Of a stretch of 58,724 bases of DNA, positions 779 to 5,992 are shown one piece after another (the stretch's first letter is position 1; each line of letters begins with the position of its first letter). The translations under genes were made by a program, and so were the position numbers. The stretch is taken from positions 163,434-222,157 of IMG/VR virus record IMGVR_UViG_3300012007_000007, one strand, 5' to 3'. This DNA is from a virus (lineage: Duplodnaviria; Heunggongvirae; Uroviricota; Caudoviricetes). The notes beneath the pieces are model-generated. The model was not told the DNA's origin. It made no database searches and was given only the letters and a program-made list of their open reading frames with translations.

Positions 779-1633
779 TTATGTATATACACTTACCAGT
801 GAAAGGTCAGATGGATAATGTGTTCTTTTACCAACCGTCTTGCCGCTTAGATATTTTGGTATGAATTTCTTAAATGTGTAATACAAAGCCACTTTGGATA
901 TTTTTAATTCATTAGAAAAATCCTCTAGCTTTGAATAATTACCGGAATGATACCTATCCCATAATTCCCTGGCACGTTGAATTGCTGCATTATGTAGTTC
1001 AATCCTTGGTCTTTTAGTGATTTTCCCGGAGACGGTATTTATGCCAGATGATGCATTCGCTGCACATATTTTGCCACACGGTTGACCCTTTTGTTTTGCA
1101 TAAGCAAATATTTTACTTCTTATAGAAGTGCTCTGCCCATGATACAAATTTCTTCCACGGACCCATTCTTTAGCATCTGGCGGCATTCGGAATACCTTAG
1201 ATTCACCGGTTATATAATTGGTATACCACCGGGTTCCGTAATGTGAATTTCGCTGGCCCCGTTGTGTTATTGCCGTTGTATACCCAACTACTTTAGCAAA
1301 TTGACAACGCAATGTTTCGTATATTCTGGCATTTATATATCGACTGTGGTTATCATTAGTACTACGCATTCTCCAAAACGCAAACATCATTTTACGGTAT
1401 TCATTTGATTCGGGTGGATACAATTTCGTTAATAGCCAATGGCATATAAAGTGTTCTTTAGCAGTAAGCAACGCTCGGTTGCATAATCGGTCTACACCAC
1501 CCAATGCCTTTGGTATAATATGGTGTAGTTCATAGTATTGGCCATGTTTTTGTTGCCAACGACGCTGCTCATAATCAGCTTGCGCTCGCAAAACGATACT
1601 TGCGTATATTCTATTGTAATTCATAACAAACAT
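779..1633 (-). CDS. Free-standing HNH homing endonuclease with C-terminal HTH-like region
   Basis: ELHHIIPKALGG...RALLTAKEHFICHWLL HNH motif; AT-rich; inside the tRNA cluster; TATAAACT motif at 1660-1667 upstream. Confidence 0.85.
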   Translation of the reverse strand: MFVMNYNRIYASIVLRAQADYEQRRWQQKHGQYYELHHIIPKALGGVDRLCNRALLTAKEHFICHWLLTKLYPPESNEYRKMMFAFWRMRSTNDNHSRYINARIYETLRCQFAKVVGYTTAITQRGQRNSHYGTRWYTNYITGESKVFRMPPDAKEWVRGRNLYHGQSTSIRSKIFAYAKQKGQPCGKICAANASSGINTVSGKITKRPRIELHNAAIQRARELWDRYHSGNYSKLEDFSNELKISKVALYYTFKKFIPKYLSGKTVGKRTHYPSDLSLVSVYT

Positions 1634-1671
1634 CCGGCAATGTTTTATGTTCTGCCTTCAGTTTATAGGGA

Positions 1672-1733
1672 ATGCTAGGGTAAGACTATGTCAAACATAG
1701 GTCAGGCAGTGCCGGCTGCTTGTCCCCTAGCAC
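1672..1733 (-). other. Branched stem-loop between tRNA-Tyr and the HNH gene
   Basis: GTGCTAGGG...CCCTAGCAT closing stem enclosing GCAG-CCGGCA-CTGC and CTATGT-TTG-ACATAG hairpins. Confidence 0.5.
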
Positions 1734-1796
1734 TACTTAAACTACAACATGTTTATCCAATTTATATAATTATATGAATTGATAGAATTTACTTAA

Positions 1797-2375: not shown

Positions 2376-2449
2376 TGGAACGTGACGGGGCTCGAACCCG
2401 TAACCTCCTCGTTGCGAACGAGGCGCTCTTCCAATTGAGCTACACCCCC
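2376..2449 (-). tRNA. tRNA-Ala(CGC) with 1-nt acceptor-stem bulge
   Basis: 5' GGGGGTG, 3' CAC-G-TTCC-A; CCTCG-TTCGCAA-CGAGG; G3:U70 retained in the bulged register. Confidence 0.88.
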
Positions 2450-2457
2450 AAAGTTAC

Positions 2458-2531
2458 TGGAACGTGACGGGACTCGAACCCGTAACCTCCTGAATGCAAA
2501 TCAGGCGCTCTTCCAATTGAGCTACACCCCC
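2458..2531 (-). tRNA. tRNA-Ala(TGC) with 1-nt acceptor-stem bulge
   Basis: Same body as 2376-2449; CCTGA-TTTGCAT-TCAGG. Confidence 0.88.
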
Positions 2532-2539
2532 ATAGTTAC

Positions 2540-2615
2540 TGGACACATATCGGGCTCGAACCGATGACCTCCTGCCTGCCAGACAGGCGCTCTACCAAAA
2601 CTGAGCTAATGGCCC
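2540..2615 (-). tRNA. tRNA-Ala(GGC) with 1-nt acceptor-stem bulge, different sequence body
   Basis: 5' GGGCCAT, 3' ATG-T-GTCC-A; CCTGT-CTGGCAG-GCAGG. Confidence 0.88.
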
Positions 2616-2677
2616 ATAAAGAAAAACACATCCGGAATTTCAATCTGCAGCAACGCTGCTCGAACGCTGCACTTTAG

Positions 2678-2751
2678 TGGAACGTGACGGGGCTCGAACC
2701 CGTAACCTCCTCGCTGCCGGCGAGGCGCTCTTCCAATTGAGCTACACCCCC
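2678..2751 (-). tRNA. tRNA-Ala(GGC) second copy, C33 variant, 1-nt acceptor-stem bulge
   Basis: Same body as 2376-2449; CCTCG-CCGGCAG-CGAGG. Confidence 0.82.
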
Positions 2752-3018: not shown

Positions 3019-5490
3019 TTATTTTTTCCTGTCGCGGACGCAGTACACCGTGAAATACCCCCGGAGTTCCCTCAGGGAACCCTCGGCCGTTATCGTTATC
3101 TTCCCCTTTGACCGGTCCAGCTCCGCGACGGCGTACAGGGTCCCGTCCTCTTCCCGGGAAGTCTCGTTGTCGTCATCGGGAATATCGTCGTCAGCTTCGC
3201 CGATTATTGTCCATGTTCTCGCCGGTATTCCCCTCATCCCCTTCCGGAGCTCCCGGGAATTCCCGCCCCTCCCGGGAGGAATCACCAGCGGAATCATGAC
3301 CCTGCCTGTGTTTGACGGCATGTCGACGTCGCTTGCCGTGGCCGGCATGGTGAAACCGGCATCCTCCATGGAACGGATGTCCAGCGCCGGGAACCTCAGC
3401 CCGAGCTGCGGCAGCGTCCGGTCGATGTTGATTCCGAACTCCTCGGTACCGGTCTCGTAGTAGCGGGACTCGTCGAGGTCTTCATCCACGGAGACCCCGT
3501 CCTCCGCGTCCCGGTCCCTCTCGGGCCGTACCGCCTGGTGCCGGCGTTCCATGTTCCCGTCGACGAAACCCTCGAACAGGCATTCGGACACGGTATCCCT
3601 CCCGTCCCCGGGGGTTGCCTTCACCGGGAAGTCCCCCTGGTGCGATACCCGGAACTTGCGGAACACCGAGAGGCGGTCGTCGTCCATGTCGAATTCCGCC
3701 GTCGAGCCGTGCCGCATCGCCATGGAGATGAACTCGTCGACCGTCGGTAGGCGCCAGCCTTCCGGTATGGCGGTGGGGACGTATTGCGCCCGGTACTTGA
3801 CGAAGTTCCTTCCCGGCGTGGAGATGTCGTCGACCACGACCGGCTGGCCGTTCACCGTGTATGACGGCGGGTACGACCGGCAGAAGCCTAGCGGGCTGGC
3901 AATCTCGAGCGCGCACCAGTCGTTGAACATGATGGACATGGTACCGTCCTCGGCGTAACTGGTCACATCGTGGTTCTCGGCTCCCGGAATCGGGTCGCAG
4001 TCGTCCCCGCCCAGGTTCTCCGAGCGCCATTTCTTGTAGAGCGAGCAGCTGCTGTCGTAGTTGGCGGTCCCGAGGCCGATGTCCGACTGTACCTGGCTGA
4101 GGACGGCGACTTCGTCGGCACGGTACACGGAGATGCCGCCTCCCGGCATACGGAGTACCGACAGGTTCCGGTATTGCGGTCTCGTGTCTTCCGTGTCCTC
4201 CTCCACGCACTGGTCCCCGTCGTATTGCACCGGGTCCCCGGGTTCGGCAGTGGGGTCATCCGCCACGCACAGGCTGACTTCCGTCCTGAACGAGTACCGC
4301 GCCTGCACCAGCCGCATGTCCTCGTCGTACCGCCTCCATCCCTCCTCGACGGCCTGCCTGTCCGCCGCGAGCCCGTCACCGCGCATGATGTTCCGGAACG
4401 GCACCGGTATGGTCGACACGGGTTCCAGCAGCCACGTTGTCCCGGCATCGGTAACGGCGCGCATCCTGCCCCCTTCAATTTCCATGTTGCGCGCCTTCCC
4501 GCTGGACGGCTTCCTGGAGAGCGCGCCCGCTATCCTGCCCGCCATGAGCCTGGCCCAGCCGAGACAGAACCTGTTGTCGCGTTCGCGGGCCGTGCGGAGC
4601 GCCGCCTCGTACCTGCGGTAGTCCCTCTTGGTGTACGGTGTGCACAGCCTGTAGAATGGCGCTCCCAGCAGTTCCGAGAGTTCCCGCTCGGAATACTTGT
4701 TGTCGCCCTTGCGCTCGTCCACGTTGTCGTGGGCGTGGTTCCACCGGTTGTTGACGTGCATGAGCCGGCCGTCCGGGCCGATGTCTATCCCGAGCATGGA
4801 CTCCCCGTAGAGGGGGTCGTCCTCGGTCATCGTCTCGAAACCCGGTAGGACGGCAAGGTAGAGCTTCACCATGGACAGCATGGTGGTACCGTCCTTGGCG
4901 GTGCGGCGGTTGAATGAGTACGAGTCGAACATGCTCTTGCTGTTGAGGTGGCACCACCCGTGGGGCTGCGTGTACTTGTAGTATGGCTTCCCGGTCTCGA
5001 ACCGGTCCAGCCATATGATTCGGTATCTCCTTGGACCGTAGCTGATTTTCCTCAGTTCGCGCTTCAGTTCCTTCCAGTTGTCCGCCGCGGTCCCCCCGTA
5101 GCGCTCGGTAAGTTCCTTGAACGATAGCTCCGTCCCTCCCGTGGCGAGGTGGCGGGTGTATTCCTCGAAGTGCGCGATGGATATTATGCGGATGTAGTCG
5201 CGCAGGTCGGCCAGCTGGCGGAAGTCCTCGTCGCCGGTACCGAACAGCAGTTCGCCGAAAGCGATACGGGCAGCCCCGGGAGCGAACTTAATCTTGCACT
5301 GGCCGTCACGGAAGAACTGCCTTCTGAGTTCCATGTACGCCGCCCTGGTCCACGAGGTTATCCCGCGGTTCCGCGCAATCTCGTCGTATATGCGTTCCAG
5401 CTCCATCCTGTTGGGGAGCGAGAGCAGGACCTTCTTCGTGTAGCGGTATGCGTCGCCCTCGGAACCGGGGCCCAGTTCTTTTTCCGGCAT
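3019..5490 (-). CDS. Large hypothetical protein (823 aa) with FISUMP/DUF1566-like C-terminal motifs
   Basis: PEGWRLPTVDEF and terminal YCVRD motifs; start set at MPEKEL because the longer ORF overlaps a terminator and a structured RNA. Confidence 0.65.
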   Translation of the reverse strand: MPEKELGPGSEGDAYRYTKKVLLSLPNRMELERIYDEIARNRGITSWTRAAYMELRRQFFRDGQCKIKFAPGAARIAFGELLFGTGDEDFRQLADLRDYIRIISIAHFEEYTRHLATGGTELSFKELTERYGGTAADNWKELKRELRKISYGPRRYRIIWLDRFETGKPYYKYTQPHGWCHLNSKSMFDSYSFNRRTAKDGTTMLSMVKLYLAVLPGFETMTEDDPLYGESMLGIDIGPDGRLMHVNNRWNHAHDNVDERKGDNKYSERELSELLGAPFYRLCTPYTKRDYRRYEAALRTARERDNRFCLGWARLMAGRIAGALSRKPSSGKARNMEIEGGRMRAVTDAGTTWLLEPVSTIPVPFRNIMRGDGLAADRQAVEEGWRRYDEDMRLVQARYSFRTEVSLCVADDPTAEPGDPVQYDGDQCVEEDTEDTRPQYRNLSVLRMPGGGISVYRADEVAVLSQVQSDIGLGTANYDSSCSLYKKWRSENLGGDDCDPIPGAENHDVTSYAEDGTMSIMFNDWCALEIASPLGFCRSYPPSYTVNGQPVVVDDISTPGRNFVKYRAQYVPTAIPEGWRLPTVDEFISMAMRHGSTAEFDMDDDRLSVFRKFRVSHQGDFPVKATPGDGRDTVSECLFEGFVDGNMERRHQAVRPERDRDAEDGVSVDEDLDESRYYETGTEEFGINIDRTLPQLGLRFPALDIRSMEDAGFTMPATASDVDMPSNTGRVMIPLVIPPGRGGNSRELRKGMRGIPARTWTIIGEADDDIPDDDNETSREEDGTLYAVAELDRSKGKITITAEGSLRELRGYFTVYCVRDRKK

Positions 5491-5510: not shown

Positions 5511-5538
5511 AAAAAAATGGCGGGGTTTCGCCCGCCCC
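5511..5538 (-). terminator. Intrinsic terminator after the tRNA-Gly/ncRNA unit
   Basis: GGCGGG-CGAAAC-CCCGCC followed by ATTTTTTT. Confidence 0.75.
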
Positions 5539-5550
5539 AAATATAGCAAA

Positions 5551-5807
5551 AGTTGGAGCGCATGCGCAACCCCGGCGGACTGACAGCCGTAAGAACGCAC
5601 CGCGGCTAAGCCGCACCGTCGACCATAACGCCAGCCGTTTAGACTCCTTGCGGAGGGCCGTCGCCACAGGACAGCGCAACCGTTGCGCAGCACCGGGCCG
5701 TCATCCCGCTTATCGCGGACCCCCAGGTTTGCCCCTCGGCCTCCCGTTTCGAACCGGGAAGCTCCGGAATGGCCAAGCCCGCGTGGGGCGGCGCATGCAC
5801 GCCAACT
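5551..5807 (-). ncRNA. Candidate 257-nt structured ncRNA of unknown class
   Basis: 17-nt closing inverted repeat (one mismatch, one G:U on the minus strand); several internal hairpins; begins 5 nt after tRNA-Gly and is followed by a U tract and a terminator. Confidence 0.7.
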
Positions 5808-5812
5808 CTTAG

Positions 5813-5885
5813 AGCGGGAAAAGGGATTCGGACCCTCGGCATCGACCTTGGGAAGGTCGCGCTCTGCCAACTGAGCTATTCCCGC
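5813..5885 (-). tRNA. tRNA-Gly(CCC)
   Basis: GCGGGAA/TTCCCGC acceptor, CGACC-TTCCCAA-GGTCG, U73; TTTTGCTATATTTG motif 8 nt upstream. Confidence 0.92.
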
Positions 5886-5992
5886 TGATACCACAAATAT
5901 AGCAAAAATATCTACCGGTGGAACGAAAAATCTTCTAAAAAATCAATTTCCTGTCGTTCCGGGGATTGCTATCACGTGCGATACCACGGTAC

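What the first reader, a model, noticed from the sequence alone, without database searches (positions are those of the whole stretch)
5551..5807. Unclassified 257-nt structured RNA co-transcribed with tRNA-Gly
Seen: a very GC-rich non-coding interval closed by AGUUGGCGUGCAUGCGC / GCGCAUGCGCUCCAACU. It contains CUCC-GCAA-GGAG (GNRA), UCCCG-GUUCGAAA-CGGGA (T-loop-like), CCGC-GAUAA-GCGG, GCGCAA-CGG-UUGCGC, GCGGC-UUA-GCCGC and CUUGGCC/GGCCGAG stems, and two GACGGCCC copies that could compete for GGCUGUC. The unit reads promoter motif (5894-5908), tRNA-Gly, this RNA, terminator (5511-5538). The G:U pairs and GNRA loop fit the minus strand. Established: large ncRNAs such as GOLLD and ROOL occur beside phage tRNAs, but this one is shorter and I cannot match RNase P, tmRNA, SRP or 6S cores. 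Inference: a new phage ncRNA class released by tRNA processing.
Basis: partly seen in the sequence, partly recalled or inferred. Interest (0 to 1): 0.78.

Follow-up and report, generated by a model that had tools for sequence, protein, structure and literature searches.

The report
Phage RNA paired with effector gene
A folded non-coding RNA in a giant gut phage matches no known RNA family and, across related phages, stays beside one particular uncharacterised protein gene rather than beside the tRNA, so it is probably that protein's RNA partner.

Summary
The 257-nt interval (5551-5807, minus strand) is a real, conserved structured RNA: z = -5.1; in ten homologues 26 of 87 pairs change on both sides; G-U outnumbers A-C 183 to 12; no Rfam match. 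The tRNA link belongs to one phage clade only. Across about eight lineages of giant gut phages (28 further loci), an RNA with the same bulged-helix motif sits beside the gene for the same protein domain (here ORF 3019-5490), upstream or downstream, mostly with its own promoter and no tRNA. Five paralogues with capsid-packaging leaders have no RNA. The RNA-linked proteins are leaderless and carry a basic helix. Best reading, inferred and not shown: the RNA binds and restrains a cytoplasmic copy of a virion effector domain, like a type III antitoxin, though it is no member of that family. Expression and binding are untested. This scan noted one distant form before (e1-5386490).

The parts
5894..5908 (-). 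Promoter motif 1 (core 5896-5904); start site inferred at 5889
   Evidence: 54 copies of the core in the genome, many 6 nt before a leaderless ATG
5812..5885 (-). tRNA-Gly(CCC), no encoded CCA; upstream neighbour only in this clade
5550..5808 (-). Structured ncRNA, about 257 nt: closing helix, three-way junction, 5' arm, long rod
5714..5785 (-). 5' arm: stem 5775-5785 with 5714-5723, enclosing the T-loop hairpin and a conserved 6-nt bulge at 5722-5727
   Evidence: 4 of 9 stem pairs change on both sides; coordinates
5739..5762 (-). Hairpin with 8-nt T-loop-like loop (5747-5754); a similar loop lies 46-59 nt from the 5' end in four lineages
   Evidence: 7 of 9 pairs change on both sides
5578..5705 (-). 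Long rod with two large internal loops
   Evidence: 7 of 12 pairs of its base helix change on both sides
5632..5660 (-). Class-defining bulged helix: 5656-5660 paired with 5632-5636, 7-nt bulge 5637-5643, 4-bp GNRA hairpin 5644-5655; candidate protein-binding site
   Evidence: descriptor hits once in 222 kb of this genome, in 25 of 28 related RNAs, once in 202 kb of their flanks; 14 invariant columns across three distant lineages
5538..5550 (-). Promoter motif 2 (core 5540-5548); inferred start 5533 lies inside the 5' arm of the terminator
   Evidence: kept in 10 of 11 homologues
5511..5536 (-). Intrinsic terminator hairpin and U-run between RNA and protein gene
   Evidence: hairpin kept with changed sequence
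3019..5490 (-). 823-aa protein; N-terminal 290 aa form an undescribed domain with a weak PcfJ/GNAT-like half; leaderless; basic helix at residues 136-158; proposed partner

Best explanation
The RNA is the partner of the protein encoded next to it. Shown: RNA and gene travel together, and the RNA keeps one short sequence-specific bulged helix while its length and layout vary (135-370 nt). Inferred: both are made early from host-type promoters. In this clade the RNA is cut from the tRNA-Gly precursor and ends at the terminator, while the protein mRNA starts from a second promoter inside that terminator; in other lineages the RNA is a leader with a terminator before the gene, or a separate transcript behind it. 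The protein is a cytoplasmic, leaderless copy of a domain that giant phages usually pack into the capsid and fuse to swappable binding modules. The RNA binds it through the bulged helix, probably at the basic helix 136-158, and most likely holds this probable enzyme inactive until RNA turnover or competition frees it, as type III antitoxins and AbiF RNAs do. Odds: genetic coupling 0.85; direct binding 0.55; binding that restrains the protein 0.3; binding as scaffold or cofactor 0.25.
For: Adjacency in 29 loci of about eight lineages, down to 47% domain identity, in three layouts and with different other neighbours. Where the RNA lies behind the gene, the next gene varies and the preceding one does not. 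L170 was fetched after the motif had been written down and has two copies. None of five leader-bearing paralogues has room for an RNA or a motif, including three from genomes whose leaderless copy has the RNA. Residues 136-158 carry +3 to +9 in 16 RNA-linked proteins and -4 to +3 in six without an adjacent RNA. Promoter-RNA-terminator-gene order in L123, L130, L132, L142 matches the layout described for RCd22/AbiF and type III systems (PMC12373285).
Against: No binding, expression or toxicity data. All loci are related phages, so linkage and the basic helix may be shared inheritance; there are only a few independent rearrangements. Two leaderless lineages show no adjacent RNA: L153, and L140/L141/L146, whose helix is still +9 (flanks limited). 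The distant RNA forms do not align to each other by profile search; their kinship rests on position, the motif, the closing helix and the loop. The protein's activity is unknown: PcfJ match best E 0.014, GNAT Z 3-4.4. The query RNA has one motif, not tandem repeats.
Confidence: 0.5

Rival explanations
1. Stand-alone phage RNA of the GOLLD/ROOL kind that acts alone or on a host target, perhaps as a multimer through the palindromic 6-nt bulge; it sits by the gene only through shared early regulation and inheritance.
For: tRNA-island position in this clade; own promoter in most lineages; the bulge at 5722-5727 is self-complementary in the A, B and G forms; palindromic loops bridge OLE and GOLLD chains (bioRxiv 10.1101/2024.12.08.627333).
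Against: It does not explain why the RNA stays beside this gene when it moves from upstream to downstream and all other neighbours change. It is much shorter, and no pseudoknot was found. The palindrome is absent from the C form.
Confidence: 0.22
2. Cis-acting leader or attenuator that sets expression of the downstream gene, for instance by autoregulation when the protein binds the motif in its own leader.
For: In L130, L132, L142, L143 and L123 the RNA precedes the gene with no promoter motif between them.
Against: In the query clade a second promoter starts the mRNA after the RNA; in the F and H forms the RNA follows the gene. It can hold only as an added role in some lineages.
Confidence: 0.1
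3. 6S-like decoy that sequesters host RNA polymerase at the early-to-late switch.
For: Long rod with a roughly 10 by 10 nt internal loop and a terminal hairpin beside an A-rich bulge; the resemblance to 6S is from memory.
Against: No 6S family hit even at E 5-10; three-way junction; length 135-370 nt; the motif is inverted along the rod between lineages; gene linkage unexplained.
Confidence: 0.06
4. DNA-level element, such as a replication origin or recombination site, bound by the neighbouring protein.
For: One copy per genome beside a fixed gene; weak helical-lid matches to ORC and DnaA (Z 3.2-4.8).
Against: G-U 183 against A-C 12 in paired columns, GNRA and T-loop-like loops, a promoter before and a U-run after each copy.
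Confidence: 0.03

Closest known systems
Type III toxin-antitoxin RNAs (ToxIN, CptIN, TenpIN) and RCd22/AbiF (PMC12373285)
   Same: ncRNA encoded beside its protein; promoter-RNA-terminator-gene order in several lineages; short conserved motif, doubled in L132 and L170; phage-borne.
   Different: No tandem repeat array; the protein matches no ToxN, CptN or Abi_2/HEPN family; the RNA is larger and branched, often has its own promoter or lies behind the gene; toxicity untested.
GOLLD and ROOL RNAs (bioRxiv 10.1101/2024.12.08.627333)
   Same: Structured phage RNA of unknown function, next to tRNA genes in this clade; GOLLD env-38 also lies downstream of a tRNA.
   Different: No Rfam match; 135-370 nt against more than 800 nt for many GOLLD members; no pseudoknots found; tied to one protein gene, whereas no protein partner is known for ROOL.
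Bacterial Y RNA and Ro60 (PMC4201824)
   Same: Long helix joining the ends, a T-loop-like element, and a gene that travels with a protein partner.
   Different: No TROVE gene in the record (78% complete); no YrlA hit on the RNA; the Ro-binding strands are not both present.
PcfJ-like proteins (PF14284) and GNAT-fold domains
   Same: Residues 150-285 of the partner give weak PcfJ and GNAT matches by three methods.
   Different: All below significance; I found no report of a PcfJ-like protein with an RNA partner.

Membership tests
Type III TA / AbiF | Antitoxin RNA made of tandem repeats | tested here: not met
   One motif in the query and no second copy; two dispersed copies only in L132 and L170
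Type III TA / AbiF | RNA and gene co-transcribed with a terminator between them | tested here: inconclusive
   Layout met in L123, L130, L132, L142; second promoter in the query clade; RNA downstream in F and H
Type III TA / AbiF | Protein of ToxN, CptN, TenpN or Abi_2 family | tested here: not met
   No such Pfam or PHROG family for the query or 122 relatives
Type III TA / AbiF | Toxicity neutralised by direct RNA binding | not testable with these tools
   Needs bench assay
GOLLD / ROOL | Match to the family covariance model | tested here: not met
GOLLD / ROOL | Location near phage tRNA islands | tested here: met
   This clade only
RNase P RNA | Both conserved strands of the P4 helix | tested here: not met
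   Neither in the query; 3' strand in none of 16 RNAs; no Rfam hit
SRP RNA | Helix 8: GNRA loop with the conserved symmetric internal loop | tested here: not met
   GNRA present, symmetric loop absent in all 16
tmRNA | tRNA-like domain with CCA end and tag reading frame | tested here: not met
   ARAGORN finds none; pattern absent
6S RNA | Unbranched rod with central bubble; match to 6S models | tested here: not met
   Branched consensus; no hit at E up to 10
Y RNA | Ro60 gene and Ro-binding bulged helix | tested here: not met
   record is 78% complete
Retron ncRNA | Adjacent reverse transcriptase | tested here: not met
   Neighbour is no RT; no RVT_1 in the record
Group I / II intron | Catalytic core motifs; interruption of a gene | tested here: not met
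   Motifs absent; flanking tRNA and ORF intact
PcfJ-like / GNAT (partner protein) | Significant profile or fold match | tested here: inconclusive
   PF14284 best E 0.014 in 5 of 122; Foldseek E 0.011; Z 4.4 at rmsd 4.1 over 93 residues

The most novel reading that the evidence does not exclude
A new kind of phage ribonucleoprotein in which an undescribed RNA acts as the cofactor or switch of a widespread, normally virion-injected enzyme domain (843 clusters), with the loss of the packaging leader and the gain of the RNA marking a change from injected effector to RNA-controlled enzyme.
Probability: 0.25. Interest if true: 0.9.

Novelty: new variant of a known kind. Interest (0 to 1): 0.74.

Why it matters
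Most large phage RNAs beside tRNA islands have no known partner, which has blocked functional work. This family comes with a named candidate partner, a 29-nt candidate site, natural minimal versions (135-175 nt) and natural negative controls (leader-bearing paralogues), so binding can be tested directly. It would also give a first handle on a domain found in hundreds of giant-phage protein clusters with no assigned activity. The promoter nested in a terminator is a compact way to set RNA and protein levels separately.

Tried and rejected
Exact-pattern scans of viral contigs gave chance hits or loci already held. No exact match to the query-clade motif in 185,579 species genomes and no relative of the protein there; nothing beyond tRNA in GenBank phages. 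Expression: no RNA holder listed; three DNA runs hold close relatives only. Coding reading: the 886-codon read-through frame is not kept (0-70 open codons before the start). No antisense or guide match in the own genome. A class-C profile did not find the other forms or anything in L140, L141, L146, L153; those records could not be searched whole. Model R1 does not reach the C-F and H forms; its 26-31 bit hits on B and G are similar in size to reverse-strand self hits, but in G001 the B form is the only hit in 260 kb. Fold searches gave no solved match above Z 4.8. The polyvalent-protein paper (PMC5512222) does not mention PcfJ. The candidate list of Fremin et al. (PMC10690425) could not be checked, as no supplement is held; the RNA may be in it. 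No complex prediction was run: the tool takes no RNA. The host is not shown; Fibrobacter is inferred from Fib_succ_major domains.

Full report
Setting. The window is the last 58.7 kb of a 222-kb virus record, 78% complete, with 31 tRNA genes. A promoter-like 9-mer occurs 54 times, often 6 nt before a leaderless ATG. Fib_succ_major domains suggest a Fibrobacter host; this is inference.

Observation. The interval 5551-5807 folds on the minus strand at -144.5 kcal/mol, z -5.09, against z -2.20 on the plus strand. Rfam gives nothing but the tRNA. Of the listed stems, the closing helix, the GNRA hairpin and the T-loop hairpin hold; four others have pair probabilities of 0.07 or less and decay in homologues, and the proposed competition is absent.

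Homologues and structure. DNA patterns found no new relatives, so I anchored on the downstream 823-aa gene. Ten sequences of 255-265 nt (mean column identity 75%) give a consensus of 87 pairs: a 22-bp closing helix, a three-way junction, a 5' arm with an 8-nt T-loop-like hairpin, and a rod ending in a bulged helix and GNRA loop. 93.4% of cells pair and 26 pairs change on both sides; no shuffle of 500 reaches either value, and slid registers pair 37-44%. The alignment was made by sequence alone. Ten related sequences are few, and the tool warns that kinship inflates such counts. G-U cells outnumber A-C cells 183 to 12, which fixes the strand and points to RNA. No reading frame is kept. A model of these ten also finds the 330-340-nt form B and the 220-nt form G at E about 1e-6, and in the 260-kb genome G001 form B is its only hit.

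The constant neighbour. In more distant phages the tRNA is gone but a structured RNA remains beside the same gene: directly upstream in L136-L138 and L143 (290-370 nt) and in L130, L132, L142 (135-175 nt), and directly downstream with its own promoter motif in L129-L135 and L152 (about 320 nt) and in L170. Their z-scores run from -1.7 to -5.6. None matches Rfam. Other neighbours differ completely. RNA forms follow the clades of the protein tree. All share a short helix, GGCC paired with GGCU, beside a 5-7-nt bulge. In forms A, B, G and part of E the bulge points to the tip of the rod; in C, D, F, H and L130 the element is inverted. A descriptor hits 25 of 28 RNAs, once in 202 kb of flanks, once in this genome (the RNA itself) and three times in 917 kb of unrelated viral DNA. 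The in-RNA count is circular, but L170 was fetched after the motif was noted and carries two copies. Four forms also have a T-loop-like hairpin 46-59 nt from the 5' end. Profile searches do not link the distant forms, so their kinship is likely but not proven.

The protein. Residues 1-290 form a domain absent from Pfam and PHROGs with 843 relatives at 50% clustering, fused to WG, LRR_5 or Fib_succ_major modules. The model is confident (pLDDT 93.6) and has no clear solved match; its second half resembles GNAT and PcfJ-like folds weakly. Six positions are invariant in 122 sequences, among them a Cys, an Arg and an Asn, which suggests an enzyme. Most relatives begin with a leader ending in Leu/Ile/Phe-x-Glu, the pattern cut by T4-type prohead proteases (own knowledge), and one lies among major capsid, S77 protease and neck genes. 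Five such copies have tight flanks and no RNA, three of them in genomes whose leaderless copy has the RNA. The query record has only the leaderless copy. Residues 136-158 are +3 to +9 in RNA-linked proteins and -4 to +3 in six without. Exceptions: L153 (leaderless, acidic helix, no RNA) and the L140 lineage (basic helix, no RNA within the flanks held).

Transcription, inferred. Promoter 1 starts at about 5889 and yields tRNA plus RNA. The tRNA lacks CCA, the phage encodes a PolyA_pol-family enzyme, and the RNA begins 1-6 nt after the tRNA, so 3' tRNA cleavage would free it. Promoter 2 overlaps the RNA's 3' end and starts inside the terminator's 5' arm, so the protein mRNA should escape termination; this layout holds in 10 of 11 homologues with changed hairpin sequences, and L123 lacks promoter 2.

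Mechanism. Shown: structure, single copy, linkage, motif, leader contrast. Inferred: binding (0.55), and restraint of the protein (0.3) or cofactor role (0.25). The closest working model is RCd22/AbiF and type III systems, where an adjacent RNA binds and neutralises its protein and a terminator sets the ratio (PMC12373285). Membership fails on repeats and protein family. RNase P, SRP, tmRNA, 6S, Y RNA, retron and intron features were tested and not met.

Verdict. A real and apparently undescribed phage ncRNA family, best read as half of an RNA-protein module. Neither expression nor binding is shown, the sample is one group of related phages, and presence in an unchecked candidate list is possible. 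Interest 0.74.

Noticed in passing
window 1630-1790 (-): ORF-free stretch between tRNA-Tyr and a 281-aa ORF (782-1633) that has an HNH-like start by eye but no Pfam hit; folds into a branched stem (-39 kcal/mol), no Rfam match.
   Followed up: partly
window 5533-5548 (-); L004, L005, L107, L110, L117: Promoter motif whose inferred start lies inside an intrinsic terminator hairpin, conserved with changed hairpin sequence.
   Followed up: partly
L169, L172, L173, L180; 42 copies in the genome: A second 7-nt motif (ATAAACT) lies at the start of leader-bearing paralogues; candidate late promoter.
   Followed up: partly
L174 391-7259: A member of the partner domain family sits in the head operon with major capsid, SLT, S77 protease and neck genes, so the family is probably virion-packed.
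   Followed up: partly
window 2377-2751 (-): Four tRNA-Ala genes, three nearly identical apart from the anticodon arm.
   Followed up: no
L005, L113, L117, about 30 nt before tRNA-Gly: A small conserved hairpin between promoter and tRNA-Gly in form-B phages.
   Followed up: no
L127 1207-2500: An unrelated ORF is inserted between the RNA and the partner gene, which has its own promoter motif.
   Followed up: partly
L137 after 5605: Short GC-rich double hairpin behind the partner gene.
   Followed up: no
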